Source of the DNA: a virus
IMG/VR virus record: IMGVR_UViG_3300020424_000652
Strand: one strand, 5' to 3'
DNA length: 64,000 bases
Shown here piece by piece: positions 11,901-61,986 of the stretch; within the stretch, counting starts at the first letter, position 1, and each line of letters starts with the position of its first letter. The notes under the pieces were generated by a model. That model was given only the letters and a program-made list of their open reading frames with translations. It did no database searches and was not told the DNA's origin. Made by a program: the position numbers and the translations under genes.

Positions 11901-13314
11901 CTCTCATACGTTCAATAGCATCAGTACCAAAATCAAATGGTCTAATTCTCATTTCACCTTGATCAATGAAAATTTGTAAATCGTCAGTTGAATGATATAA
12001 AGGTATTCTTTCTACAGTTGGTAAACTGTCTAAACCATTAGCAATTACACTGGTAGTAATTTCAAAAAGTTGTGTTACTCTTGTTGTCACACCAGCTTCT
12101 GGTAAAGATAAAAGTGTGTTTTGTGCAACAGCACTTCCACCTGACTGTAAAGTTGTCCAAGTTGTGTTTGTTAATACATATCCGTTAATTAAATCCTTAA
12201 GCCAGTTTCTAATGGTCGTTTCAGGAGTTCTTGTTCCTGTTATCAACGGTGTTGTTTGTACCCAATATGTTTTTGCTTGATCATATGTGTAACCATTGCC
12301 GCCATATTTTATATCATTGACCAAAGCAGTAAGTTCTTGATTAATGTCTCTTTCCATCGCAACGGAATTATAACTGTAACCGTCAAACGTTGATCCTGCT
12401 GTTGCTGTTGAAACTGCATTGGCCACATAAGCCAAAGTTTCCTTCTTCAAGAAGTTCATGTTTGCATTTAGTACTGCTATTGCATTTGGAGAATACTCAA
12501 CGTTGTCTGTATCTTTCTTAAGATAAACTGTTGTTACTGTTCCTGTTTTTTCTAAGAATTTAGGAAAGTCTTCTTCAATACCTTTTGTTAATTTGTCAGT
12601 GTCATCTGTTTGGTATTGTACAGTTGCACCTAATTCTGGATCACTAAAATTAAACAACACTTCGTTGTTTGTAGTGTCTGTCATTAACAATAAATCATTT
12701 GTTGGAATACGTGTTTGCATTTTCACACTTGAAATTTTTGATCTGTCAAGTGCAGGAACATTATCAAGACCGTTTTGAATAACGTCTGTGATAATTGCCA
12801 TCAATGCAGTAATTCTAGTATCTGCTCCTGATTCATATGCAATACCTGAATTTGTGTATTGTGTTGTTACCACAGGACTTTGTTTTGTTGTGTAAGCTGT
12901 TTGTGGTAAAATGTAATTGTTAATTAAACTTACAATAAAGTTTTTGGTTAAAATTTCTGGTTGTCTATCACCATCAAGCTGTGGTGTTGAGTTGATCCAA
13001 TACTTACTTGCTAGATATCTTGCCTGTGCATTTCCACCATAACGCAAATCAAATATTACACCACCGTTTCCATCAGTGCCTTCTAAATTGTATCCTGTAT
13101 CTCTTTCACACTTGGGAGAATTGTATGTATAGTTGTACCAAGGGCTACTTGAATTACCTGCATTAAGAGTAACCTGTTCAGCAATCCAACCAACAGCTTC
13201 GTCTTTGATAAATTCAATGTTATTTTTTATTAGCTCATAAGCATTAGGATACCTATTACCTGAAAGTGGAATTCCCGGTTGAAATATATACGTATCTATC
13301 TTTTGTTTAGCCAT
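5938..13314 (-). CDS. Giant modular virion structural / tail-fibre-like protein (2458 aa)
   Basis: Gly/Thr/Ser-rich beta composition, tandem ~70-aa repeats (LGGxSPANDxTITV), repeated helical module (YNSxKCERD...DxxYGGN...YW); located in the structural region. Confidence 0.7.
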   Translation of the reverse strand: MAKQKIDTYIFQPGIPLSGNRYPNAYELIKNNIEFIKDEAVGWIAEQVTLNAGNSSSPWYNYTYNSPKCERDTGYNLEGTDGNGGVIFDLRYGGNAQARYLASKYWINSTPQLDGDRQPEILTKNFIVSLINNYILPQTAYTTKQSPVVTTQYTNSGIAYESGADTRITALMAIITDVIQNGLDNVPALDRSKISSVKMQTRIPTNDLLLMTDTTNNEVLFNFSDPELGATVQYQTDDTDKLTKGIEEDFPKFLEKTGTVTTVYLKKDTDNVEYSPNAIAVLNANMNFLKKETLAYVANAVSTATAGSTFDGYSYNSVAMERDINQELTALVNDIKYGGNGYTYDQAKTYWVQTTPLITGTRTPETTIRNWLKDLINGYVLTNTTWTTLQSGGSAVAQNTLLSLPEAGVTTRVTQLFEITTSVIANGLDSLPTVERIPLYHSTDDLQIFIDQGEMRIRPFDFGTDAIERMRVSNSVSMLDADFEYGLQPTKWQAIAMQRGYPSIYEVPGTDKVVASVKTDASTGTGGVGQSLITVTTVGGHGITAGTPITIKALENSIQGASRAEGSFIVSTVPTASTFTYFAKSKVGTANNQVLSTYYTQLREGGFYTGAAIGVPTFTILSQGTAGVFTNPLGALNGSDKVTWIGNTPEIGAPMQNVSGQIATVNTYSAASASRTPGTYTVTNATSSSVTAELIVGTMTVTIDGSGAGIASNFLGGRNNAVGDTITVPDASIGGGGAPDLTFLVASVNAGTGVASGAQVTVVTGSGGEIATLSVAADYAAGVNQIAVSDVTGILAGQAIDRGDGNAIHVSSVSGNNVNLDGNTTSPIVGNNVNYTGLAGTNVNPTGTGATFDIDRAGGNYTAVLNGTGGDNYLVGDVIIVLGNLLGGQTGTNDCRITVDSIDSSGSVVTFTATGSAFDGTGSYSNVAGSNLNGNGLGAIFDLTYTNNTYSVSLAQPTYANNGTGVTQGGTGTGAAWDITLANNNYTVAENSGATDAGYVVGDAIRINGTEFGGDATNDLTISITGVDGSGGITSFTSAGSGPDASNSFTEPSYTYGGVGTDAAVNVNFTGSTYGVTLVNAGSGYSASETLVIAGTNLGGQSPANDATVTIDSVDGSGVITAISITGTAVNSRSYTNITSGQNLVGAAATFNVTVNYNNSYTVTQGNEPGTNYANGNTIIIAGNNLGGTSPANDLTITVTGINAGTGAITSFSSSGTAADATSGYAAGDRLKILGSNIGGASPANDAIVKVDAVSGTGRINTISVTGTAPDATESYNNPAYTSNTVGGADATFNVTRLDTSYSASVVVGGTGYLAGEEFVILGSNLGGVDVTNNATITISAVDASTGEITGVTIAGTALDTKTVTQLSQFDGEAINQVGSTGTFDVVLNAGSYTVTVNTPGAGYYVDQSIRIQGTTLGGASPANDVTITISSVDASGAITGITATGTAPGGTASYTAIGGQNLQNTGEQATFNVTRNGGAYSTATVALDGINYQVGNKIKLVGSSVGGTDVTNDVIINVTEVATDGGIISVTSSGTAVAGTVVKTYSTVTMSENLVAAVPQNYTLQFAALATVEVSFTTAHGLIPGDSFLVTVSTDDGSNNHTLLEGPFFAQQVPTTTTLRYQCRAAGAISDVNDINAILYPRPDSFFVHRPYDGGVQLGTGGPQHGAQAIRQSKKYIRYQSGKGIMYTTGALFAPSYDLLTVTADAVTSGSFINVTTDDVDHGLQVGGQIRLIGIETPGYNGDYTVSAIVSEREFKVIAQTDLGATTPILSPKAQVSLLYWHGATVRSGAFDDQNGIFMEYDGANYNAVQRTATLQLSGTISLGVDSNAVTGIGTRFRDQVKAGDRVVIKGMTHVVSQVTSQTSMNVTPDFRGVTPASGAKICLVADKKSKQADFNGDVLDGTGSSGYILDISKMQMIGIQYSWYGAGFIDWMLRGDDGNFIFYHRMRNSNVNTEAFMRTGNMPVRYEVTNEGPNDRLGAAMDATQTTIPLEDASFFPPGGGTVIIDNEMIQYTGITGDTLTGCTRSAPLTNFAAGATRTYTAGVAAEHTARTGVILISNTITPIISHWGSAFQTDGGFDSDRGYIFSYTSTGNVISSTRNTVFMLRLAPSVSNAIVGDLGERELLNRAQLLLEGIEITSDGVDGSGNPIVGGIVVEGILNPQNYPLDPGDVGWSPLTGAAAGGQPSFAQVAPGGSVVWSTGETQVLRNATTTAEMTNDLVASYNRNNTNYHFFTNASWNLVSSEVSTGNTVTATSNAQSGSSDFPDGTTITDIYEYYNPKLMRFSNRNTATISNGETVTVSINPTGALDKTNYLYFTKASWEATGAIAGTEVSDSKFPGGTYVSGVQGPSTYGGVEYYRVTFTQSSLQNITAGTTVSFLFGQPPYALPGETVFSFIATPGEQSSLMLGTLKELTNTTLGGRGTFPNGPDVLAINVYKASGASTNANIIIRWGEAQA
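8700..10775 (-). repeat. Eight ~70-aa protein repeat units (seven intact, one split) in the 2458-aa protein
   Basis: Recurrent GAxFxV...Y...GxGYxxGDxIxIxGxxLGGxxxxNDxxITVxxVDxxGxI...GTA. Boundaries are approximate. Confidence 0.8.
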
Positions 13315-13317
13315 TTA

Positions 13318-14349
13318 TTAACTTCCCAATGCTATTGCTAGTGCAGTTGCTCTGCTGTCTACATATCTTTTGTTTGCAACATTAGTCTTTAATGTAGGGG
13401 TTGCCTGCACCTTTGCACTAGTAAATTCTGCCGTAGTTGGCGTTGTATCACCAATTACTGTATTATTTATCGTACCTGCGGTTGCTGTAAGACTGTTTGT
13501 TTTCACTATTCCAGGCGTTGTAACACCTATATTCATGTTGTCAATTGTGCCTCCAGCCGCTGGATTTACCATAAGTGTACCAGCACTACCAGTTGGAGCA
13601 ATTCTTATATCAGCGTTTGTGCCTGAAAGTGTAACATTATCCAATGCAGTTAACCTTTGAGCAGTGATATCCATGTTGCTAATGGTACCGCCATTTGATG
13701 GATTTATAACGACTGTTCCTGAACTGCCTGTTGGTGACAATGTGATCACAGCATTTTCACCCTGTGCTGTGATGTTACCTGTTGTTAAAATACTTGAAAA
13801 ACTTCCAACTCCAGTGATTGTTGGATCAATTATTGTAAAAGTACCAATTGGATTGTTGTCTCCATCTGCATAATACAAAGTATTAGGAGCATTTGTTGGT
13901 ACAGTAAAAGTCACCTTGCCTGAAAACAATCCTTGTGCTTCAGAACCTTCTTTTTTAGTTGATTGATCTGTGCTTAAATGTGTTACACCGGTATCATAAG
14001 CTGTGTAACCTCCACTGTCTGCCTGCACAATGTTGAATGTTAAGTTACCAAGTGTTTGTCCTGCTTGGTTTGTTGTTCTTAAAATTAAGTTGAATACGTA
14101 TGCACTACCTCTGGTCAATGTAACACCAGGATTTGATTTTAATTGTGTTGTGCTACCTGGTTCAAATTCACCATCAAATGTAAAATTACCACCAGCATCT
14201 CTTACCACATAGTCACCAGATACATCAGTTGTTTCTTCTGTGACAGTATAAGTTACACTTCTTAGTGTAACGTTACCTGCTTCATCAACTGTGAATCCAG
14301 GTGATTTGAATCCATGTTGTGCTTCAAAGGGTGATTTAACAACAGCCAT
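13318..14349 (-). CDS. Virion structural / fibre-associated protein
   Basis: LTRGSAYVF...VTFTVPTNAPNTLYY domain, GGTIDNMNIG fibre-type repeats, C-terminal ANKRYVD...AIALG. Confidence 0.6.
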   Translation of the reverse strand: MAVVKSPFEAQHGFKSPGFTVDEAGNVTLRSVTYTVTEETTDVSGDYVVRDAGGNFTFDGEFEPGSTTQLKSNPGVTLTRGSAYVFNLILRTTNQAGQTLGNLTFNIVQADSGGYTAYDTGVTHLSTDQSTKKEGSEAQGLFSGKVTFTVPTNAPNTLYYADGDNNPIGTFTIIDPTITGVGSFSSILTTGNITAQGENAVITLSPTGSSGTVVINPSNGGTISNMDITAQRLTALDNVTLSGTNADIRIAPTGSAGTLMVNPAAGGTIDNMNIGVTTPGIVKTNSLTATAGTINNTVIGDTTPTTAEFTSAKVQATPTLKTNVANKRYVDSRATALAIALGS

Positions 14350-54478: not shown

Positions 54479-54702
54479 GGATCTTAAGTAGGTCTCTCGA
54501 AGAGATCCTAAAAGAAGTTGAAAATTTAGATAACGAGACTAAAAACTTCAAGCTAGAACTTGCAAGACTATGCTGGTATATGCGTGGGGGTGTGACCCTT
54601 GACGAAATGTATGCAGTTGGTCCTGAGGATCGAGAGATATTCGCAAAACTTGTAAAAGAAAATCTAGAAACTGCTAAAAAGACAAATATGCCTTTCTTTT
54701 AG
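54469..54702 (+). CDS. -1 frame extension of the gp26-like gene (gp51-like hub assembly catalyst), probably reached by programmed frameshift
   Basis: Open -1 frame FRVRILSRSLEEILKEVENLDNETKNFKLELARLCWYMRGGVTLDEMYAVGPEDREIFAKLVKENLETAKKTNMPFF* with no ATG/GTG/TTG until 54580. Slippery A_AAT_TTT_TTC at 54463-54472. Confidence 0.65.
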   Translation, partial: FRVRILSRSLEEILKEVENLDNETKNFKLELARLCWYMRGGVTLDEMYAVGPEDREIFAKLVKENLETAKKTNMPFF

Positions 54703-57311
54703 GCTACTTGTTTTTGTGTAAGTTGTGCCTTAACGGCTTTTTGTAATCCAGCATCACTTATTTGACTTGCTAACGTAGGCAAGTCAATTTGCATTCCTGA
54801 ACCAAGGTCTTTTCCAGTACCTGCACTTGCACCTGCTTTAGGTGGTTGACTTAATTGACTTTTAACTTGATCACCTATGCCAGCCTTTTTGATTTGATCA
54901 GCTAGTCCTGGTACATCAACATCCATTCCTGTTGCTTGTTGTCCTTTGGCTGTGCTTGGTGGCTTAGGTTGTTTGCCGCCTATTGCAGTTTTACCTGCTG
55001 TGCCTGGTGGCTTAGGTTGCTTATCACCAATTGCTTTTCCAATGCCGCTCTTAGGAGCATCAACTCCGTCTGCTGGTTTTGTTCCAGGCATCTGTATAAC
55101 TTTGCCTGTCTTGTCGTCTTTGCCATCTTTGTTAGCATCAACTGGTTTTGCAGTAGCGTCAGTTGCCTTTGGATCTTCACCTGGTTTTGCTGTTGCTCCA
55201 CCTGGTGTTGGTGCTTTAGGATCTTCTTCTCCTGCGTCTGGTTTTGCCGCTGGTTTCAAAGGTACCTTTGTGTTTGTTGCTATGGTACCGATGGATTCAT
55301 CTGATAATCCTGCGTCAGATAAAATATTAACAATGGTTCCCATGTCTTTTGGTTTGCCCATCTTGGTCCAAGTCTTCATTAATTTTTCTTTGGTAATTTT
55401 GTTAGCTAATTGTTTTGCTCCGCTTTTAACTGCTCCTGCGGCTTTACCTACAGCACCTGAAACTTTTTCTCCTGCTTTGTCCATAGCATCACCAACCTTG
55501 TTGGCTCCTGCTTTTGCAAGTGCTTTCATTTTATCTAACACTGGACCTTCTTCTAGGTTGTCTTCTAAGAAATCGTTGTAGTCTTCAACTATGCTGTTGT
55601 ATTTTTCTATGTCTATTGATTCTTCTTTTGCATCAGCCTTTTTATCGTCAGCTTTTTTATCGTCTGGTTTGACTTCCATGCCTGCTAATGCGCCACCAAG
55701 TCCAACTGCCGCCGCGGCTTTTACAACATTTTGAGCCATGTCGTCAACTGCTGTTTCCATTGAACCTTTTACTACTGATGATAAAACCTTATCATATAAT
55801 TCATCTGAAAGATCATCTGGTAAATTTTCTAAAGCCTTGTCTAGAGCTTCTGTGTATGGATTAGGACTTACAAATACACTTTTTACTCTATAAACAGGAT
55901 TTCCGTCTGCATCAACACCTTCAATCATTGATTCAACAGTACCTTCATACACAGTTCCGTCTGGTAATGTTTTAGTAACAGTTGACTCCCATGTTTGACC
56001 AACTGTAAGGTCCTCTGGTACACCATCAACTTGTATATCATCACCAGTAATAATTTTATCTGAAGCAGATATTCTCGTTCCTAAGAATTCTTTTTGATCT
56101 ACTGCTCTGTTAAATGCTTGTGCATTTTGTAATGCTTCAATGTCTTCTTCTGTCATACCCGCATCTAACAATTTTTGTGTGTTGTCAGTAATCCATTGGT
56201 TGTCTGGAAAGTCTGCTGAATTTATTCCTGCGGCGTTTAATTCTTCTGCATCAAGTTCAGCTACAACTTCTATATCAGTTGTGTCTGCTACATCAGTACC
56301 TGATGTATCTGTAGTTTTAGTTATTTCAACATCTGTGCCTTCAATACCAAATTCGTCTTGCATAGAATCAATAGCCTGATTCAAGTTTCCACCATCTTCA
56401 CCTGCAAGAGAAAATATCTTGTCGTTAACCTGTTTCAATTGACCTTGTAAAACTTCTTTTGCATCTGAATCAAGATCAGGTGAACGCATCAATTCAGCCA
56501 TTGCACTTCTTGATTGTATAAGTTCTTTGGCCGCATCAGCATCTAGATCAGCCATGCTTGTTGCATCCATGCCGTCAAGTGCCGTTATGTCAATTTCTCC
56601 TGAAGCATCATTTATAAATGTGTTTGTGATCTCTGGAGGTAACAGCTTGTCTAAAGCATCTCCTAATGCACCTGCCGCCGCACCAATTGCCGCACCTTTA
56701 ACGGATTTAGCAACTGCTGTTGACAATTGATCACCTTTCAATGTGTTACTTGCAAGTTTTAAAAAGAAACCAATTGCCGCACCAGATACAACACCACCAC
56801 TTGCAAATGCAAGTACAGAAGTCATTGCACCAATTACAAATGCCGCTTTGGCTGGATTTTCTTTTGCAAAGCCACCATAACCATCGACAACCTTGAGTAT
56901 CTTTTGACCCATTGGGTTGCCTTGAAGTTTTGTTTTTAATTCTGCTTTTAGTTTTTCAAATTGTGCGTCAAAGTTTTTTACAGGGCCACTGTTCTGTGCC
57001 GCTTTCAATAATTGATCTATCTGTGCTTGTAATTTTTTTGCTTGATCGCCAACAACACCTGCGGCCTTGCCTAGTGCAGTTTTGTTATCGCCACTTTGTA
57101 CAGCAACCTTTTCTGCGTTTGTAAAGATGCCATCAATTTGTTTGTCAGTAAGTTCTGCTTCAAATAGTGTGTTGATGCTTTCAACTAATGGCCAAACATC
57201 CTTTTCCCATTTTCCAATATAAATGCGTTGTGCTTCTGTTAGCTCTTGCCAACCTTCCGCAAGTATTGTTTTTGATTTTAAATTATAAGATGTAACTTCA
57301 CCTAGTCGCAT
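54699..57311 (-). CDS. Large hypothetical protein, candidate internal head/ejection protein
   Basis: 870 aa; MRLGE N-terminus, hydrophobic hairpin AAFVIGAMTSVLAFASGGVVSGAAIGFFL, acidic middle, P/K/G-rich duplicated tail. Confidence 0.55.
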   Translation of the reverse strand: MRLGEVTSYNLKSKTILAEGWQELTEAQRIYIGKWEKDVWPLVESINTLFEAELTDKQIDGIFTNAEKVAVQSGDNKTALGKAAGVVGDQAKKLQAQIDQLLKAAQNSGPVKNFDAQFEKLKAELKTKLQGNPMGQKILKVVDGYGGFAKENPAKAAFVIGAMTSVLAFASGGVVSGAAIGFFLKLASNTLKGDQLSTAVAKSVKGAAIGAAAGALGDALDKLLPPEITNTFINDASGEIDITALDGMDATSMADLDADAAKELIQSRSAMAELMRSPDLDSDAKEVLQGQLKQVNDKIFSLAGEDGGNLNQAIDSMQDEFGIEGTDVEITKTTDTSGTDVADTTDIEVVAELDAEELNAAGINSADFPDNQWITDNTQKLLDAGMTEEDIEALQNAQAFNRAVDQKEFLGTRISASDKIITGDDIQVDGVPEDLTVGQTWESTVTKTLPDGTVYEGTVESMIEGVDADGNPVYRVKSVFVSPNPYTEALDKALENLPDDLSDELYDKVLSSVVKGSMETAVDDMAQNVVKAAAAVGLGGALAGMEVKPDDKKADDKKADAKEESIDIEKYNSIVEDYNDFLEDNLEEGPVLDKMKALAKAGANKVGDAMDKAGEKVSGAVGKAAGAVKSGAKQLANKITKEKLMKTWTKMGKPKDMGTIVNILSDAGLSDESIGTIATNTKVPLKPAAKPDAGEEDPKAPTPGGATAKPGEDPKATDATAKPVDANKDGKDDKTGKVIQMPGTKPADGVDAPKSGIGKAIGDKQPKPPGTAGKTAIGGKQPKPPSTAKGQQATGMDVDVPGLADQIKKAGIGDQVKSQLSQPPKAGASAGTGKDLGSGMQIDLPTLASQISDAGLQKAVKAQLTQKQVA

Positions 57312-57320
57312 TAAACTTCC

Positions 57321-57887
57321 TTACAATAATTTTACTAGTTCTGCTTTTTGTTGTGCATTCAATCCGTCAAGAGCTTTTTGTATGTTTGCCGGAATAGTTG
57401 CACCACCTTTTGCCGGAGCCGCCGCTTGATCAGTACCTCCTGCTGGCTTATCACCGCCACCGTATTTTTGTCCTAGTGTTTGCGGAGCGTCAGCATCAGT
57501 TCCTGCTTGGGCTTTTCCAAGATCACCTTTGAATGTGTCCTGTGCAGTTTTTTGTAATATATCATCAACCTGTTTAGGAGTAATCTGTCCTTGCAATCCT
57601 TTTAGTCTCGTGGTAGAAAGACCTTGTTTTTGCATGAAGTCCTGTAAGGCATTTACAGATGGTGCTTTAGGATTGCCACCTGTTTGTCCCATATATTGAC
57701 GATATTGAGTGAATATTTCTTTGGCACGTTTGTTTGCGTCAACTTTTCCAGTCATTCCAGCGGCGGTGCCTTTGGCACCCACGGCGCCAGCCACTTTTGC
57801 GCCTACTTTACGTGCTATGTTACCTAATGCACTACCACCAGGAGCTTCGTTAACTGCATCTGTGCTTGTTATTTGCGTTATTTTCAT
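57321..57887 (-). CDS. Hypothetical late protein, candidate internal head protein
   Basis: 188 aa, MKITQI...NEAPGG; TATAAATA at 57910-57917 and AGGAG SD. Confidence 0.6.
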   Translation of the reverse strand: MKITQITSTDAVNEAPGGSALGNIARKVGAKVAGAVGAKGTAAGMTGKVDANKRAKEIFTQYRQYMGQTGGNPKAPSVNALQDFMQKQGLSTTRLKGLQGQITPKQVDDILQKTAQDTFKGDLGKAQAGTDADAPQTLGQKYGGGDKPAGGTDQAAAPAKGGATIPANIQKALDGLNAQQKAELVKLL

Positions 57888-57951: not shown

Positions 57952-58146
57952 ATGCCTCAGACGAGATATAATGTTTTTGAGAAAGGCAACTCAGAACCCT
58001 TAACACAATGTAGCGATATGCACGAAGCGGATATTGTTATACAACAGTTAAAGGATGCCAATCCACACAAAGAATATGTAGTGGAACCTGTTGTTGTCTA
58101 CGATAGTGATGCTTTTCGTTATGGACGCGATCCGGAATTGCATTAG
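57952..58146 (+). CDS. Small hypothetical protein (64 aa)
   Basis: ATG 57952 lies just downstream of a TAAATA motif (57941-57946); MPQTRYNVFEKG...GRDPELH. Confidence 0.5.
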   Translation: MPQTRYNVFEKGNSEPLTQCSDMHEADIVIQQLKDANPHKEYVVEPVVVYDSDAFRYGRDPELH

Positions 58147-58147
58147 T

Positions 58148-58560
58148 AGTTGAGCTAAAGCTCAACTTTGTTTTCGTTGTCACTCAAACAATTTTATTAT
58201 ATGAAATAAGTTGCGAAGCAACTGCTATCATGTAGATAGTTGAGCCATACTTCGCCCGTCTCCGGGCAAAGCAATGATGCCATCATGTAAGATGAGCTTA
58301 CCATCTTAACTAAGAAGATTGCATTTCTGCATGGAGGCGGTAACCCGTCAACCCCCTACTTCAGCCTTCGCATAAGTTACGGAATATTAACACACCCTAG
58401 TTAAGCAAAGTGTGTTAACATTGTGGTTGCTTTTTCTCAGAGCCACGATCTTTTAATACCTAAGTTAGTATCAACCTTGCAACGCACCAGTTCCAGTCAT
58501 AAGATCAGTATGACCTCAAGGTGAGTCGAGCTATCCCGACCAAACAATGTTGCTATATAG
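58148..58560 (-). ncRNA. Candidate ~410-nt highly structured non-coding RNA/DNA element
   Basis: No ORF. More than ten stem-loops, including a 15-bp stem (58384-58421), GAAA and GAGA tetraloops and G-U pairs on the minus strand, and a possible loop-distal pairing. Confidence 0.65.
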
Positions 58561-58564
58561 AATT

Positions 58565-58987
58565 TTATTTTGCCTTGAGTGCTTCTTTAAGTAATTTAGA
58601 TCCGCCTACTCTCACGTTTATTATGCCATTGTAGTATTCATCTGTTTCTAACACTCTACGTTCAAACTGTTCTCTTGCCTCTAAGTAACTTGCTACGCCT
58701 CTGCTTGGACAATAATGTAATATTTCTCTTGTGAATTTTTCTTCGCCTAGTTTTTCTACGTCTGATTGCAAATGATCTGATGATCCCCAGTAGTCACGCC
58801 AGTCACTTTCAACTTTGCTTCTACGTTTGTTTATCTTACCCTTGAGAGGTGGGCGTGTCTTTCTGAATTTTGCTAGTTTTTTGCCGACATATTTCATACC
58901 GTTGGTTGTATTTGTGATCAAATACACAAATGCTTCACAGTCTTCAGGTAAGTTTTCTACGGTTTTTCCTTGATATGTCCAGTGCAT
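58565..58987 (-). CDS. Stand-alone GIY-YIG family nuclease domain protein
   Basis: AFVYLITNTTNGMKYVGKK (GIY...YIG variant), YWGSS, FTREIL, conserved Glu in YLEARE, YYNG. No C-terminal DNA-binding domain. Confidence 0.8.
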   Translation of the reverse strand: MHWTYQGKTVENLPEDCEAFVYLITNTTNGMKYVGKKLAKFRKTRPPLKGKINKRRSKVESDWRDYWGSSDHLQSDVEKLGEEKFTREILHYCPSRGVASYLEAREQFERRVLETDEYYNGIINVRVGGSKLLKEALKAK

Positions 58988-59004: not shown

Positions 59005-59205
59005 TTAATCTTTATTTGGATCTTCTTTTTTGGCTTTGTAGTCGTCTATTATTTCTTTTCTTCGGTCAGTAGCAAGTCTACGTATCTCGCTTAACCATTT
59101 TCTAGCAGAACGTTTAGTGCGTTCGCTCTTGCGTATTTCCCAGGCTTCGTTAGCCTTATAGTATTCTAGATATGCTTTTGTTAACTTGTCGTGTGTATCG
59201 TCCAT
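59005..59205 (-). CDS. Small basic helical protein (possibly nucleic-acid binding)
   Basis: 66 aa, RKSERTKRSARKWLSEIRRL; TAATG-coupled to gp46. Confidence 0.6.
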   Translation of the reverse strand: MDDTHDKLTKAYLEYYKANEAWEIRKSERTKRSARKWLSEIRRLATDRRKEIIDDYKAKKEDPNKD

Positions 59206-60977
59206 TATGTCATTACCTCTACATCATTATCGTATGATGTAAATCCATTTTCTTTGATTACTTTCAACACGTTTGTAACACGACTTGCTAATTCTTCTTT
59301 GTGTGATATCAAATAAATGTTCTTTTGACGTTCTCTACCCATTTTCTTCAATACAGCAATAGCATTTTCTACACCATTTGCATCCATACCACTATCAACC
59401 AATTCATCAATAAACAATAGGTTGATGTTTTGATACAAACTTTCCCACACATCTCTAAATGCCCAACTCAATCCTAGTATTAATCTGTTTCTTTCACCTC
59501 TTGACAAGTTATCAAAGTCTAAATCTTGTCCTAGTTGTGTGATTTCAACAGTTAGATCATTTTTAAACACCACTGTGTGTGGAAGTTGTAGTCTATCCAA
59601 ATAATGTGTAAGTCTATTGTTTAGATATGCTAGATTTTGATCAATAATCTTCTTTCTAATGAAAGAATCTTTGTTTGTCAACAGCTTGTATAAAAAGTCT
59701 TGGTGATCCTTTGTGTCATTTAATTCATTAACGACATCCCAGTTTACTTCTTGTATTGCAGTTTTTTCTAAATCATCAATTTGTTCTGTGTATGGATCAA
59801 GTTCATCAGTCTTTTCTTTTAAACTTTGTTTCAAACTGTCAACGTTGCTTCTGTGTTGATATGCTTCTTTGGCAGTTTCATAAAATGTATTTGGCTTACT
59901 GTCAAGTTCGCCTATGTCTTCAATAAGTTTTTCAACCTTTTGCATTTTTTCAGCCATGCTTGTTTGATAAACGTGTGCATCACCATAATCTTTTTGCAGT
60001 TTATCTTTCATTTCTTCAAGTTTGTCATCATGCAAGTCTTGACCACAAGCATAACATTTCGCAGTTTCTAGTTCATCAAGTTGTTTACCAAGTTTGTTTA
60101 CATTATTATCAGCTTGTTCTAATGCACGTTCAACAGTTGCACGTTCTTTTCTTAAATTAGTAAGATGTTTACTGTTTTCTTCCCAAGTTTTAAGTTTTTC
60201 ATGATCTTCAAGTTCACTATCTATGTCAAGTTGCTCTAATTCACGTATTGCTTTTTCTAGTTTATCTCTGTCTTGTTTGTTTTGTGCAATCCAAGCCTTT
60301 TTTCTGCTGTGCAATCTTTCAATATTTTCTTTGATCTTATCATTGCTGTTTGTGATTGCTTGTATTCTTGCGTTTTCTTCTGTAAGTTTATCTCTTGTTA
60401 TTTTTGTTGCCTCTCTTAATAGATCAGCTTTTTCAGAAAGAATTGTAATACCAAGTAATTGTTCTATTATAGCACGTTGATCGTTTGGCTTTAGTGCTAA
60501 AAAGGGCTCTGTGTAAGTATTAAGTGCCACAATATGCTTGAACATATCATGACTCATACCTAACAAGTCATTTATATCGCCTTGTGTTTTACGTGAATCA
60601 CCTTGGCTTTCATCTGTAAGTTCTTGTTCTTTTTGATCTATGTAAAATTTAAGTGTGTTAGGTTTACGTCCTCTTTCTATTCTATAATCTTTGCCATTTT
60701 TAGTAAATGCAAGAGTAACTAACATACCTTTGTTGTTTGTTTTGTTTACAAGATTATCACGTCTAATGTTTGTAAGTGCTTGTCCGTAAAGTGCATAACT
60801 CAAAGCATTAATAATTGTTGTTTTACCTGTACCGTTACGTGATCCACTGTCGTCTCCACCTTGATCTAAGTTTTCACCTAACACCAATGTAAGTTGTTGC
60901 TTGTTGAAATCTACTGCCTGTGTTGTGTTACCAACACTCATAAAATTTTTAACTGTCAAATCTTGTATTCTAATCAT
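59205..60977 (-). CDS. gp46: Recombination endonuclease ATPase subunit (gp46 / Rad50-SbcC)
   Basis: Walker A RNGTGKT, Zn-hook CYAC, signature LSRGE, Walker B LLFIDE, ISH. Confidence 0.95.
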   Translation of the reverse strand: MIRIQDLTVKNFMSVGNTTQAVDFNKQQLTLVLGENLDQGGDDSGSRNGTGKTTIINALSYALYGQALTNIRRDNLVNKTNNKGMLVTLAFTKNGKDYRIERGRKPNTLKFYIDQKEQELTDESQGDSRKTQGDINDLLGMSHDMFKHIVALNTYTEPFLALKPNDQRAIIEQLLGITILSEKADLLREATKITRDKLTEENARIQAITNSNDKIKENIERLHSRKKAWIAQNKQDRDKLEKAIRELEQLDIDSELEDHEKLKTWEENSKHLTNLRKERATVERALEQADNNVNKLGKQLDELETAKCYACGQDLHDDKLEEMKDKLQKDYGDAHVYQTSMAEKMQKVEKLIEDIGELDSKPNTFYETAKEAYQHRSNVDSLKQSLKEKTDELDPYTEQIDDLEKTAIQEVNWDVVNELNDTKDHQDFLYKLLTNKDSFIRKKIIDQNLAYLNNRLTHYLDRLQLPHTVVFKNDLTVEITQLGQDLDFDNLSRGERNRLILGLSWAFRDVWESLYQNINLLFIDELVDSGMDANGVENAIAVLKKMGRERQKNIYLISHKEELASRVTNVLKVIKENGFTSYDNDVEVMT

Positions 60978-61986
60978 CTTTGTTTAGGTCTCTATAAATT
61001 TGCAACAATTTACCTTTGTTAAATTGTTCTGATTCAATTGCTTCAATCTCTTTTGCAACTATTTCATCAACACTTTCAAACTTTGTAATGTCGATATCTG
61101 AATTCATTTCTTCTTCTTGTGTGTTTGGTATTAAACTTATCTCTCTACAGTTGTACTGATTGATAAAAGTTTCTTTTATGAAGTTTGCTTCTTCATAACT
61201 AATAGGCAAATCAAGTGTAACTCTTAGATACATCTTAGATTTTAGTATAGTTTCTTTTTCATCAAGCAGTCTTGATAATTTTATTGTTCTATACTTGGGA
61301 CAATTCCACCAATTGATGTACTGCGGTTCTCCACCATGTTCTAGTATCATCATACCACGTTCATCATCCCACGCATCTGCGTAATTGTGTGGCAATGCGT
61401 TACCAATGTAATGCACAGGACCTTTGACTTGGCGTTTGTGGAAGTGTCCACTGAACACATATTCTTGATGTTTAAAGTGATCTGCTTGTAATTCACCAGT
61501 GTCTGGCATCTGAACCATTGCATTCATGTAAAAGTTAGGAAGTTCAAAGTGTCCAAAGATGTATTTGCTTTTTATTTTAGGAATCTTCTTCCATTCATCT
61601 CCAACCAACCACGGAATTAGTGTAACATCACCTTCTGTCATCATCTCATTTACCATTGTGATGCCTTCAATGTGTCTTGCAAAGTCTATGGAGTTGATAT
61701 CTCTTTTGTCTTTGTAGTATAAATCATGATTGCCAGGAAAGAAATAAAATTTTTCAAAAGCCTTGCCTAGCTTTTCAAGACTTCTAATAGTTGCGTCCAT
61801 GGTCAGCATATTCAAACTGTTTCTGTTGTGATGCCAGTCGCCACAAAAGATACCAGTTTCGCAACCGTTTTCTTTGGCTTGTTCTATATACCAATCAATA
61901 AATTCTTCACAGTCATCATTGTGAATTTTTGAATTAGACTTCAATCCAAAATGGATGTCTGTAAATACTGCCGCTTTCTTAAACAA
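60970..61986 (-). CDS. gp47: Recombination endonuclease nuclease subunit (gp47 / Mre11-SbcD)
   Basis: DIHFG, GDWHH, GNHD, FGHFE, SGHFH metallophosphoesterase motifs; TTG start with GAGG SD. Confidence 0.95.
   Translation of the reverse strand: MFKKAAVFTDIHFGLKSNSKIHNDDCEEFIDWYIEQAKENGCETGIFCGDWHHNRNSLNMLTMDATIRSLEKLGKAFEKFYFFPGNHDLYYKDKRDINSIDFARHIEGITMVNEMMTEGDVTLIPWLVGDEWKKIPKIKSKYIFGHFELPNFYMNAMVQMPDTGELQADHFKHQEYVFSGHFHKRQVKGPVHYIGNALPHNYADAWDDERGMMILEHGGEPQYINWWNCPKYRTIKLSRLLDEKETILKSKMYLRVTLDLPISYEEANFIKETFINQYNCREISLIPNTQEEEMNSDIDITKFESVDEIVAKEIEAIESEQFNKGKLLQIYRDLNKDD

What the first reader, a model, noticed from the sequence alone, without database searches (positions are those of the whole stretch)
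58148..58987. Stand-alone GIY-YIG protein immediately followed by a ~410-nt densely structured non-coding element: possible nuclease-RNA system or RNA-primed origin
Seen: starting just after the nuclease stop, the minus strand forms GTCGGG/CTCGAC, ACCTTG/CAAGGT enclosing GGTCATA/TATGACT, GATAC/GTATT and GTGG/CCAC. It continues with a 15-bp stem (58384-58421) whose loop region CTTAACTA is complementary to TAGTTAAG ~90 nt downstream (58305-58312), a pseudoknot or switch that competes with a TAAGATG/CATCTTA stem. Then come GGGGG..CGG/CCG..CCTCC, TGCA-GAAA-TGCA, GCTTTGCCCG-GAGA-CGGGCGAAGT, CTATC/GATAG and terminal perfect palindromic hairpins (58209-58223, reading GCGAAGC on +; 58148-58167). GNRA loops and G-U pairs favour the minus strand as RNA, co-transcribed from the gp47 promoter. 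The 140-aa protein lacks the DNA-binding tail of homing endonucleases but has a basic insertion (KFRKTRPPLKGKINKRRSK). Inference: either (a) an RNP in which the RNA supplies scaffold or specificity to the nuclease, by analogy to HEARO/OMEGA RNAs, or (b) an R-loop/primer RNA plus ssDNA hairpins forming a replication origin beside gp46/47. I could not match it to group I/II introns, RNase P or tmRNA.
Basis: partly seen in the sequence, partly recalled or inferred. Interest (0 to 1): 0.85.

Follow-up and report, generated by a model that had tools for sequence, protein, structure and literature searches.

The report
Twin-box phage RNA beside nuclease gene
The gene-free stretch behind this small DNA-cutting enzyme gene encodes a real, doubly knotted RNA of about 350 bases and unknown job. 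It is shared by hundreds of uncultured aquatic giant phages and by lab-grown E. coli giant phages, and the enzyme looks like a replaceable neighbour rather than the RNA's partner.

Summary
Window 58205-58557 (minus strand) encodes a ~350-nt non-coding RNA, followed by terminator hairpins down to 58148. Across 59 relatives the fold covaries far beyond controls (score 0.302; shuffles 0.146, slid 0.06-0.12). Two pseudoknots are carried by compensatory changes.

Two short "twin boxes" (UCU-ACAUGAUG) change between lineages mostly in concert: CAUGAAG, GAUAAUG, and CGUCAA in E. coli phages.

The RNA-guided-nuclease reading is not supported.
- The 140-aa protein is a SegE-type GIY-YIG catalytic domain found in 461 cultured phage records. 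ORFs follow it directly in the two checked (P-HM1, phiM12), and Melnitz (72% identical) shows no credible RNA match.
- The RNA occurs with a PD-(D/E)XK nuclease in the same slot, beside an opposite-strand endonuclease VII in phage 121Q, and with no nuclease nearby.
- It is best read as an autonomous RNA gene in a conserved gp47-gp46-nuclease slot.

My model finds three copies each in 121Q and PBECO4. Rfam knows only the first 141 nt of a freshwater subclade (Polynucleobacter-1, RF01718); this window does not match it.

Function is unknown. An origin or primer role stays open.

This scan found the same family before on other DNA.

The parts
58205..58557 (-). Twin-box structured ncRNA (~350 nt), from the invariant AUAGCAAC to the H12 terminator hairpin and its U-rich tail
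   Evidence: MFE z -5.6; conserved in >300 related loci; covariation 0.302 against 0.146 shuffled, 0/500 shuffles as high; model R1 scores 153 bits here and hits nowhere else in the window; no codon periodicity
58383..58553 (-). 5' domain: closing helix GCAAC/GUUGC (58549-58553 with 58479-58483) around H1 and H2/H3, then hairpins H4, H5 and the 15-bp H6 (58408-58422 with 58383-58397)
   Evidence: closing helix 99.7% paired, H1 100%, H5 99% with 3 of 4 pairs covarying. H3, H4 and outer H6 covary by eye but are blurred by indels. This domain is lineage-specific; only the 3' half aligns in divergent clades
58398..58405 (-). Pseudoknot 1, 5' strand: H6 loop CUUAACUA, pairing with UAGUUAAG at 58305-58312
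   Evidence: helix 9: 93% of cells paired, 6 of 8 pairs changed on both sides (for example UUAACAA:UUGUUAA, UUGAUA:UAUCAA, UGCAAA:UUUGCA)
58305..58312 (-). Pseudoknot 1, 3' strand (UAGUUAAG)
   Evidence: helix 9
58375..58380 (-). Pseudoknot 2, 5' strand GUAACU, pairing with GGUUAC (58340-58345) in the H8 loop
   Evidence: helix 10: 100% paired, 4 of 6 pairs covary. The same pairing covaries among 121Q paralogues (GUCAU:AUGAC against GUUGC:GCAAC)
58314..58362 (-). Three-way junction core: H7 (GAAG/CUUC) enclosing H8 (GGGGG/CCUCC) and H9 (UGCA/UGCA)
   Evidence: H7 100% paired with 4 of 4 pairs covarying; H8 100%; H9 87%. H7 also covaries in 121Q paralogues (GAAG:CUUC against GCGA:UCGC)
58279..58297 (-). 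Box-1 hairpin (H10); box 1 is UCUUACAUGAUG at 58281-58292
   Evidence: helix 15: 90% paired. Box variants
58249..58272 (-). H11, a 10-bp stem with a GNRA-type loop (GAGA)
   Evidence: helix 16: 95% paired; conserved in all clades
58225..58243 (-). Pre-box segment CUCAAC and box 2 (UCUACAUGAU at 58227-58236)
   Evidence: The two boxes share an identical 6-mer in 156 of 184 distinct RNAs across three variants. The proposed third contact UUGA:UCAA is 91.5% paired but has only one-sided changes, so it is unproven (helix 13)
58209..58223 (-). H12 hairpin (GUUGC-UUC-GCAAC) followed by a U-rich tract: likely 3' end of the RNA
   Evidence: Terminator-like site; the hairpin covaries by eye (AGUGC/GCACU, ACAUA/UAUGU)
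58148..58167 (.). Perfect palindromic hairpin: bidirectional terminator between the RNA and the convergent ORF
   Evidence: Terminator-like on the + strand; abuts the stop of ORF 57955-58146 (+)
58565..58987 (-). 140-aa stand-alone GIY-YIG nuclease (SegE-type catalytic domain only)
   Evidence: PF19835 E 2e-34; phrog_447 E 1e-37; model pLDDT 84.7; best structural match is the I-TevI catalytic domain, Z 7.9; 80% mean column identity over 30 relatives
59005..59205 (-). 66-aa ORF of unknown function between gp46 and the nuclease slot
   Evidence: L295 has an 88-aa ORF at the same place sharing the motif DDTHDKL-KAYLEY-KANE by eye; no formal comparison was run
59205..61986 (-). gp46 (Rad50-like, 59205-60977) and gp47 (Mre11-like, 60970-61986) recombination nuclease genes, which define the conserved slot
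   Evidence: Pfam AAA_23 / Rad50 zinc hook and Metallophos; window gp46 is 34% identical to 121Q gene 593, E 2e-124
57955..58146 (+). Convergent 63-aa ORF ending at the shared terminator
   Evidence: a 60-65-aa ORF at the same place in many relatives; no family match

Best explanation
Window ~58205-58557 (minus strand) is a gene for a ~350-nt, independently folding non-coding RNA of a large, essentially uncatalogued phage family, called 'twin-box RNA' here.

Its conserved 3' domain is a three-way junction. Two covarying pseudoknots lock that junction to the upstream hairpin loop and linker. It is followed by two hairpin-plus-box modules that display the same short word twice.

Shown:
- The fold covaries.
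- The family spans marine and freshwater giant T4-related phages and the cultured E. coli phages 121Q and PBECO4.
- It sits in a conserved slot gp47 - gp46 - [small DNA nuclease] - RNA.
- The nuclease in that slot can be GIY-YIG (here), PD-(D/E)XK or endonuclease VII.

Inferred:
- The GIY-YIG protein is a domesticated SegE-type catalytic domain doing a DNA job of the endonuclease-VII kind (branch or junction cutting) without the RNA.
- The RNA is a trans-acting scaffold whose working end is the twin boxes. These hold two copies of one lineage-specific partner, either a dimeric protein or a repeated nucleic-acid site.
- That role is probably in DNA replication or recombination rather than in guiding the nuclease.
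For: RNA reality:
- MFE z -5.6 on the minus strand against -2.8 on the plus strand.
- 80.7% of cells paired against 33-45% when slid; covariation 0.302 against 0.146 shuffled, with 0 of 500 shuffles as high.
- no codon periodicity.
- single 153-bit hit in the window.

Breadth:
- Downstream of 68 of 70 non-redundant GIY-YIG homologues.
- Motif scans of IMG/VR find the GIY gene upstream in 115 of 115, 82 of 82 and 97 of 105 informative loci.
- Model R1 hits 121Q and PBECO4 three times each (E 6e-7 to 3e-3), all in ORF-free gaps. H7 and pseudoknot 2 covary among the paralogues, and their own twin boxes read CGUCAA.

Independence from the nuclease:
- A PD-(D/E)XK gene (PF24608, E 1e-25; phrog_244) occupies the same slot in L295/L383.
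- 121Q copy 3 follows gp47-gp46-endonuclease VII, with the endonuclease on the opposite strand. A TG-extended -10 TATAAT promoter-like site lies just upstream of the RNA.
- L326 and L396 have no nuclease nearby, and in L396 the upstream gene is divergent.
- The GIY-YIG family occurs in 461 cultured phage records, with ORFs directly downstream in P-HM1 and phiM12. Homologues of 43-53% identity show the same.
- Model R1 gives no convincing hit in Melnitz, P-HM1 or phiM12 (E 0.034, none, 0.9).

Twin boxes: an identical 6-mer in 156 of 184 distinct RNAs, across CAUGAU, CAUGAA and GAUAAU variants.

Protein conservation: 80% mean column identity. That pattern is unlike a decaying selfish endonuclease.
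Against:
- In this window the RNA starts 8 nt after the GIY stop with no convincing promoter, so co-transcription with the nuclease is likely.
- Adjacency to a nuclease holds in about 99% of loci. That could reflect a functional tie to 'whatever nuclease sits there' rather than mere synteny.
- The boxes are not always identical: box 1 reads CAUGAAG or CAUGAGG with box 2 CAUGAUG in L177, L023, L140, L119 and L190.
- No partner for the boxes was found. No complement lies within the RNA, and ACAUGAUG is not enriched in the window (3 sites against 4.7 expected).
- The resolvase-like role of the GIY-YIG protein rests only on slot-sharing. Its fold is closest to the homing-endonuclease I-TevI (Z 7.9), not Slx1 (Z ~3).
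Confidence: 0.55

Rival explanations
1. Origin or primer RNA. The RNA is transcribed by host RNA polymerase, folds, and forms a persistent hybrid with the DNA downstream to prime leading-strand synthesis, as ColE1 RNA II or the T4 oriF/oriG R-loop transcripts do. The twin boxes contact DNA or a replication protein.
For: - 121Q and PBECO4 carry three co-oriented copies about 103, 134 and 111 kb apart in a 348-kb genome. Each lies in an ORF-free gap.
- TG-extended -10 promoter-like sites lie upstream of 121Q copies 1 and 3 (by eye; scanned for copy 3).
- The slot is next to gp46/gp47, the recombination-replication nuclease.
- An AT-rich tract follows the RNA.
That is not independent evidence.
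Against: - The RNA ends in a terminator-like hairpin with a U tract, which does not suit a read-through primer.
- A covarying double-pseudoknot fold exceeds what known R-loop origins need.
- There is no GC-skew inflection at 58 kb (a weak test).
- Related contigs of 167-268 kb show only one detectable copy each.
- No origin mapping exists for any of these phages.
Confidence: 0.2
2. Nuclease-RNA ribonucleoprotein. The RNA binds the adjacent nuclease as scaffold, guide or inhibitor, by analogy to OMEGA/HEARO RNAs or type III antitoxin RNAs.
For: - GIY-YIG and RNA are adjacent at a fixed distance in nearly all loci of this clade, down to ~50% protein identity.
- The protein lacks a DNA-binding domain and has a basic hairpin.
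- Two repeated boxes could seat a dimer.
Against: - The GIY-YIG family is widespread without the RNA.
- The RNA occurs with PD-(D/E)XK, with an opposite-strand endonuclease VII, or with no nuclease, and keeps its twin boxes.
- No long variable unpaired segment was seen by eye.
- The protein (77-100% identical) is far more conserved than the RNA 5' half.
- The basic insertion belongs to the SegE-type domain in general.
Confidence: 0.05
3. Cis-acting 3' element of the gp47-gp46-nuclease operon: an mRNA stabiliser against 3' exonucleases, or a processing or termination module with no trans function.
For: The RNA begins 8 nt after the stop codon with no clear promoter in this window. It always starts just behind the upstream ORF, even where a 260-356-aa ORF is inserted. 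It ends in terminator hairpins.
Against: - It stands alone between opposite-strand genes with a promoter-like site of its own in 121Q, and behind a divergent gene in L396.
- Spacers with sigma-70-like promoter sequences precede it in L009, L010 and L042 (by eye).
- Two covarying pseudoknots, a conserved junction and twin boxes are far more than exonuclease blocking needs.
Confidence: 0.1
4. Catalytic RNA: a self-cleaving or other ribozyme, or a degenerate group-I-like core left behind by an intron-borne GIY-YIG endonuclease.
For: A double-pseudoknot core with invariant unpaired nucleotides. GIY-YIG endonucleases are classic intron passengers.
Against: No Rfam ribozyme or intron model matches at E <= 10. 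No interrupted host gene exists: a convergent ORF lies downstream. The family occurs away from any endonuclease.
Confidence: 0.05

Closest known systems
Polynucleobacter-1 RNA motif (Rfam RF01718; Weinberg et al. 2010, PMC2864571)
   Same: In freshwater relatives L219 and L203, the first 141 nt of the element directly behind the GIY-YIG stop match RF01718 at 104.6 and 83.6 bits against a cut-off of 37. Their 3' halves match my model of the window's 3' domain (65 and 55 bits). A contig of a 'Polynucleobacter sp.' MAG also carries GIY-YIG plus the RNA.
   Different: RF01718 covers only a 5' domain of one subclade and is an orphan motif; the held paper only lists it in a table. The window's RNA does not match it at E <= 10, and its 5' domain has a different helix layout. 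The conserved, doubly knotted 3' domain with the twin boxes is not in Rfam.
GOLLD (RF01998) and ROOL (RF03087), large ornate RNAs often carried by phages
   Same: Large (hundreds of nt), multi-helix, pseudoknotted non-coding RNAs of unknown function, found in phage genomes and discovered by comparative genomics.
   Different: No sequence or structure match. This RNA is smaller, is not next to tRNAs, and has the twin boxes and a fixed slot beside gp46/gp47.
HEARO / IscB omega-RNA and TnpB reRNA (OMEGA systems)
   Same: A structured RNA of a few hundred nt encoded right next to a small nuclease gene.
   Different: There the nuclease is RuvC/HNH-type and strictly RNA-dependent, and the RNA carries a variable guide. 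Here the nuclease is GIY-YIG, it is common without the RNA, other nucleases replace it, and no guide-like segment was seen.
ColE1 RNA II and the T4 oriF/oriG R-loop primer transcripts (from general knowledge, not tested here)
   Same: A promoter-driven, folded transcript of several hundred nt that could prime replication. Three spaced copies in 121Q would suit origins.
   Different: No hybrid, RNase H site or origin has been mapped. This RNA ends in a terminator-like hairpin and has a far more elaborate conserved tertiary fold.
T4 SegE / I-TevI GIY-YIG homing endonucleases
   Same: The protein matches the SegE-type GIY-YIG domain over its whole length. It is structurally closest to the I-TevI catalytic domain (Z 7.9, rmsd 2.5 A over 81 residues).
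   Different: It has no C-terminal DNA-binding domain. It is highly conserved, sits in a fixed slot in this clade, and is near-universal in cultured cyanomyophages. That is the pattern of a domesticated core gene, not of a sporadic selfish element.
T4 endonuclease VII (gp49) and phage PD-(D/E)XK putative resolvases
   Same: They occupy the same position (gp47-gp46-[nuclease]-RNA) in 121Q and in L295/L383 respectively.
   Different: The folds are unrelated. Junction cleavage by the GIY-YIG protein is inferred from slot-sharing only and is untested.

Membership tests
Rfam RF01718 Polynucleobacter-1 | Score at or above the 37-bit gathering cut-off of the covariance model | tested here: not met
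   No match in the window even at E <= 10. Met by the 5' 141 nt of relatives L219 and L203.
Twin-box RNA family (defined here by model R1) | 3' domain: H7/H8/H9 three-way junction, H11, and two box modules | tested here: met
   153 bits, E 2e-39, though the window is a seed sequence of the model. Non-seed members score 18-65 bits and 121Q/PBECO4 21-34 bits.
Twin-box RNA family | Two pseudoknots supported by compensatory changes | tested here: met
   Pseudoknot 1 has 6 of 8 pairs and pseudoknot 2 has 4 of 6 pairs with changes on both sides. Pseudoknot 2 also covaries among 121Q paralogues.
OMEGA-type RNA-guided nuclease system | Obligate co-occurrence of nuclease and RNA | tested here: not met
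   GIY-YIG without the RNA. RNA without GIY-YIG.
OMEGA-type RNA-guided nuclease system | A variable, unpaired guide segment flanked by a conserved scaffold | tested here: not met
   Judged by eye in the alignments. Variable parts are hairpin tips (H3, H9) and a linker of roughly 7-25 nt between box 1 and H11. No long unstructured hypervariable end was seen.
Group I intron carrying a GIY-YIG homing endonuclease | Match to an intron model, and an interrupted host gene with flanking exons | tested here: not met
   No Rfam intron hit at E <= 10. Upstream is a complete 66-aa ORF and downstream a convergent ORF.
tmRNA / tRNA-like RNA | tRNA-like domain and tag reading frame | tested here: not met
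   ARAGORN finds nothing in the window. The genuine permuted tmRNA of phage Melnitz is unrelated by nhmmer.
GIY-YIG nuclease, SegE-type domain (PF19835) | Full-length match to the domain profile, with a GIY-YIG fold | tested here: met
   E 2e-34 over residues 3-123 against profile 1-123. Fold matches I-TevI Z 7.9 and UvrC N-terminal domain Z 5.3.
Seg-type free-standing homing endonuclease | C-terminal DNA-binding domain and sporadic, mobile distribution | tested here: not met
   The protein ends 17 residues after the catalytic domain. It is conserved at 77-100% identity in a fixed slot and is a near-core gene of cultured cyanomyophages.
Holliday-junction resolvase (functional class) | Structure-specific cleavage of branched DNA | not testable with these tools
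   There is positional replacement by endonuclease VII and by PD-(D/E)XK. The fold is only weakly similar to Slx1 (Z ~3).
Replication origin (R-loop type) | Mapped initiation site, or skew or coverage inflection | tested here: inconclusive
   No skew change at 58 kb. Skew in this window follows transcription direction, so the test is weak. Run data were unavailable.

The most novel reading that the evidence does not exclude
The twin-box RNA is a structured initiator or organiser of phage DNA replication or recombination. It would be a folded primer or origin RNA, or an RNA that uses its two identical, lineage-specific boxes to pair with or recruit a matching repeated site. It would be present once beside gp46/gp47 in aquatic giant phages and three times, evenly spaced, in E. 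coli phages 121Q and PBECO4.
Probability: 0.2. Interest if true: 0.85.

Novelty: new variant of a known kind. Interest (0 to 1): 0.6.

Why it matters
This is a widespread RNA with an elaborate conserved fold. It appears in hundreds of uncultured marine and freshwater giant-phage contigs and in cultivable E. coli phages. It is absent from RNA catalogues apart from an orphan 141-nt fragment.

Large, intricately folded RNAs with no known job are rare, and they have repeatedly led to new biochemistry.

Two features make this one approachable:
- Two short boxes co-vary by identity rather than by complementarity. That points to one unknown reader and gives a ready handle for pull-downs and mutagenesis.
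- Homologues exist in phages 121Q and PBECO4, which grow on laboratory E. coli.

The work also removes a tempting but wrong reading, an RNA-guided GIY-YIG nuclease. It suggests that the small GIY-YIG protein, annotated as 'NAD synthetase' in many of the listed cultured-phage records, fills the endonuclease-VII slot.

Tried and rejected
- Rfam scans of the window at E <= 10 found nothing in the element.
- ARAGORN found no tRNA or tmRNA.
- blastn of the window's RNA, a divergent marine RNA and a freshwater RNA against 50,697 cultured phage records found no RNA match. Only the covariance model found 121Q and PBECO4.
- RF01718 does not hit 121Q, PBECO4, Melnitz or P-HM1.
- The idea that the region is a decayed C-terminal domain of a longer Seg protein was dropped. 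The ~140-aa form is the family norm and the region has no codon periodicity.
- The tmRNA idea, prompted by Melnitz's annotated tmRNA, was dropped. That is a genuine permuted tmRNA with no similarity to this RNA.
- A box-to-box or box-to-internal-complement pairing was looked for by eye and by an all-pairs covariation scan. Nothing consistent was found, and phylogenetic two-clade noise dominates single-column signals.
- ACAUGAUG is not enriched in the window.
- Kink-turn, C/D-box, MazF-site (UACAU) and start-codon-mimic readings of the boxes were considered and dropped, because the variants GAUAAUG and GCAUGAUG break each motif.
- PA5oct's four RNA-seq ncRNAs (PMC7318152) are not this family. 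The only model hit there is weak (18.8 bits) and lies elsewhere.
- The sequence search of solved structures gave no meaningful hit for the protein.
- No whole genome is held for the window.
- Complex prediction was not used. It cannot take RNA, and no protein-protein claim is made.
Full report
**What is there**

The window is part of a T4-related phage.
- gp47 (60970-61986) and gp46 (59205-60977) lie on the minus strand.
- They are followed by a 66-aa ORF and then a 140-aa ORF (58565-58987). That ORF matches the SegE-type GIY-YIG domain over its whole length (PF19835, E 2e-34; phrog_447, E 1e-37).
- The next ~417 nt to 58148 have no convincing ORF and no codon periodicity.
- A convergent 63-aa ORF (57955-58146, +) ends at the perfect hairpin 58148-58167. 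That hairpin scores as a terminator, as does the hairpin 58209-58223 on the minus strand.
- The RNA proper is therefore about 58557 to 58205.

**Is the structure real?**

Yes.
- The minus strand folds with z = -5.6 against dinucleotide shuffles; the plus strand gives only -2.8.
- The GIY-YIG gene was used to fetch 80 related IMG/VR loci out of more than 599. The element is conserved behind the stop codon down to ~68% identity. After profile iteration it is found behind 68 of 70 non-redundant homologues.
- On a 59-sequence alignment (A3) I wrote out a structure of 103 pairs in 18 helices and counted it.
- 80.7% of cells are paired, against 33-45% with the partners slid by 1-3 columns.
- The covariation score is 0.302, against 0.146 +/- 0.003 in shuffles (0 of 500 as high) and 0.06-0.12 when slid.
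- Fully supported are the closing helix GCAAC/GUUGC, H1, H5, inner H6, H7 (4 of 4 pairs covary), H8, H9, H10 and H11.
- Also supported are two pseudoknots: the H6 loop CUUAACUA with UAGUUAAG (6 of 8 pairs covary), and GUAACU with GGUUAC in the H8 loop (4 of 6 covary, 100% paired).
- A third contact (UUGA in the H8 loop with UCAA before box 2) is 91.5% paired but shows only one-sided changes, so it is unproven.
- Many conserved G-U pairs fit the minus strand as the RNA strand.

**The twin boxes**

- Two modules, each a hairpin followed by a short word, stand on either side of H11: UCUUACAUGAUG (58281-58292) and UCUACAUGAU (58227-58236).
- Across relatives the word changes (CAUGAUG, CAUGAAG, GAUAAUG) and the two copies usually change together. 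156 of 184 distinct RNAs have an identical 6-mer in both boxes.
- The rule is not absolute. Several sequences have CAUGAAG or CAUGAGG in box 1 with CAUGAUG in box 2.
- This is co-variation by identity, not by complementarity.
- I found no internal complement and no enrichment of the word or its complement in the window.
- The simplest reading is that both boxes are read by the same outside partner.

**Is the RNA the nuclease's partner?**

Three independent motif scans of IMG/VR, keyed on the RNA and not on the gene, show very tight adjacency in this clade.
- 115 of 115 informative loci carry the GIY gene upstream.
- 82 of 82 real RNAs of the GAUAAUG type have it upstream. About 20 of these have an extra 260-356-aa ORF of no known family in between.
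- Of 105 informative loci of the CAUGAAG type, 96 have it adjacent and one has a 34%-identical homologue ~735 nt upstream.

The exceptions are decisive.
- In L295 and L383 the context is the same as here: gp47, gp46, an 88-aa ORF that shares a motif with the window's 66-aa ORF by eye, then the slot, the RNA and a similar downstream gene. There the slot holds a 184-aa PD-(D/E)XK protein (PF24608, E 1e-25; phrog_244, named RusA-like junction resolvase).
- L326 and L396 have the RNA with no nuclease nearby. In L396 the upstream gene is divergent, so the RNA must have its own promoter.
- Conversely, the GIY-YIG family is found in 461 cultured phage records: 339 Synechococcus, 22 Prochlorococcus, Sinorhizobium, Stenotrophomonas and others. 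Many of the listed records mislabel it 'NAD synthetase'.
- In P-HM1 and phiM12 other ORFs follow directly and gp46 is not adjacent. The same holds for homologues of 43-53% identity.
- Phage Melnitz has a 72%-identical copy but no credible RNA match anywhere in its genome.

Further points against a partnership:
- The protein is much more conserved (mean column identity 80%) than the RNA's 5' half, which is unalignable between clades.
- I saw no long unpaired hypervariable, guide-like segment in the alignments.
- The basic insertion belongs to the SegE-type domain itself.
- The predicted structure (pLDDT 84.7) is closest to the I-TevI catalytic domain (Z 7.9), then a GIY-YIG restriction enzyme, UvrC and T4 EndoII.

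**Reach of the family**

A covariance model of the 3' domain (R1: 153 positions, 33 pairs) was run as follows.
- It hits the window once (153 bits).
- It recovers the divergent marine and freshwater clades, the PD-(D/E)XK loci and L326. L396 was supported by nhmmer only, not by R1.
121Q has hits at 90.6, 193.2 and 327.0 kb, all on the + strand. PBECO4 has three equivalent hits (E 6e-7 to 3e-3).
- All six lie in ORF-free gaps.
- The paralogues align over ~500 nt. They covary in H7 (GAAG:CUUC against GCGA:UCGC) and in pseudoknot 2 (GUCAU:AUGAC against GUUGC:GCAAC), and they carry their own twin boxes, CGUCAA twice.
- A TG-extended -10 promoter-like site scores upstream of copy 3, and one is visible by eye upstream of copy 1.
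- Copy 3 of 121Q sits behind gp47 (gene 592), gp46 (gene 593, 34% identical to the window's gp46) and an endonuclease VII gene on the opposite strand, and before a baseplate gene.
- So the slot gp47-gp46-[small nuclease]-RNA-structural module is ancient. The nuclease in it can be endonuclease VII, PD-(D/E)XK or GIY-YIG.
- Related IMG/VR contigs of 167-268 kb are rated only 46-75% complete, which suggests genomes near 350 kb. Each shows one detectable copy.

**Relation to catalogued RNAs**

- In freshwater relatives L219 and L203, the 141 nt directly behind the GIY-YIG stop match Rfam's orphan motif Polynucleobacter-1 (RF01718; 104.6 and 83.6 bits). Their 3' halves match R1.
- A 'Polynucleobacter sp.' MAG contig carries the gene and the RNA.
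- The window's RNA does not match RF01718.
- The catalogue therefore holds only one subclade's 5' domain. The held literature says nothing about function.

**How it most likely works**

Shown:
- A folded, doubly knotted RNA.
- A conserved 3' core with two identical boxes.
- A fixed slot beside the recombination nuclease genes.
- Autonomy from any particular nuclease, and promoter-like sites of its own in some lineages.

Inferred:
- The RNA acts in trans as a scaffold that presents two copies of one word to a lineage-specific partner.
- Its neighbourhood, and the three spaced copies in 121Q, point to DNA replication or recombination.
- The GIY-YIG protein acts on DNA alone in the endonuclease-VII role.

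The origin/primer variant of this idea (about 0.2) is not excluded. Against it, the skew test is weak and negative, and the RNA ends in a terminator-like hairpin.

**Limits**

- No expression data could be had.
- In this window the RNA may be co-transcribed with the nuclease gene, since no good promoter was found.
- E-values from R1 are rough.
- The PA5oct hit is weak (18.8 bits, in a 910-nt ORF-free gap) and does not coincide with that phage's published ncRNAs.

This scan has met the same family on other DNA before. I re-tested the claims I used.

Noticed in passing
121Q NC_025447: ~90.3-90.9 kb, ~192.8-193.35 kb, ~326.55-327.3 kb (loci L418, L424, L423); PBECO4 NC_027364: three equivalent sites: Three co-oriented paralogues of the RNA in unannotated ORF-free gaps, spaced about 103, 134 and 111 kb around a 348-kb genome. 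Their 5' domains are nearly identical between paralogues. Copy 1 follows a sigma-factor gene.
   Followed up: partly
PA5oct MK797984 12810-13720 (locus L430/L431): A 910-nt ORF-free gap holds a weak hit of the 3'-domain model (13268-13420, 18.8 bits, E 0.008). It is not one of the four ncRNAs that the PA5oct RNA-seq paper annotated.
   Followed up: partly
cultured phage records, e.g. P-HM1 NC_015280 157848-158333 and phiM12 NC_027204 162711-163124: Many of the cultured-phage records listed for this ~140-aa GIY-YIG family annotate it as 'NAD synthetase'. That looks like a propagated misannotation, since Pfam and the predicted fold say GIY-YIG nuclease.
   Followed up: partly
L204 536-1606, L207 6736-8556, L213 3617-4645, L227 3025-4047, L254 6966-7757: In about 20 freshwater contigs one or two ORFs of 260-356 aa with no Pfam or PHROG match are inserted between the GIY-YIG gene and the RNA.
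   Followed up: partly
window 57955-58146 (+): A small convergent ORF (63 aa, no family match). A 60-65-aa ORF sits at the same place in many relatives. It shares the bidirectional terminator with the RNA.
   Followed up: no
window 54699-57887 (-): An 870-aa and a 188-aa protein, rich in Ala/Gly/Lys low-complexity repeats and with no Pfam match for the 188-aa one, follow the RNA locus. A 266-aa ORF with a similar N-terminus by eye sits at the same place in L295.
   Followed up: no
Melnitz MZ577095 44732-45184 (locus L397): This OM43 phage carries a genuine permuted tmRNA (tag ANDNYVPVDYALAA by ARAGORN). It has a 72%-identical GIY-YIG gene but no credible twin-box RNA.
   Followed up: yes
IMG/VR contigs behind L096, L121, L317, L259, L242: Contigs of 167-268 kb carrying this locus are rated only 46-75% complete by CheckV, so the window's phage probably belongs to a ~350-kb giant-phage lineage related to the 121Q/RaK2 group.
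   Followed up: partly
L009/L010 3424-3490, L042 3424-3500: In some relatives a 65-75-nt spacer with a sigma-70-like promoter (TTTACA ... TATAAT) is inserted between the GIY-YIG stop and the start of the RNA. This hints at independent transcription in those phages.
   Followed up: no
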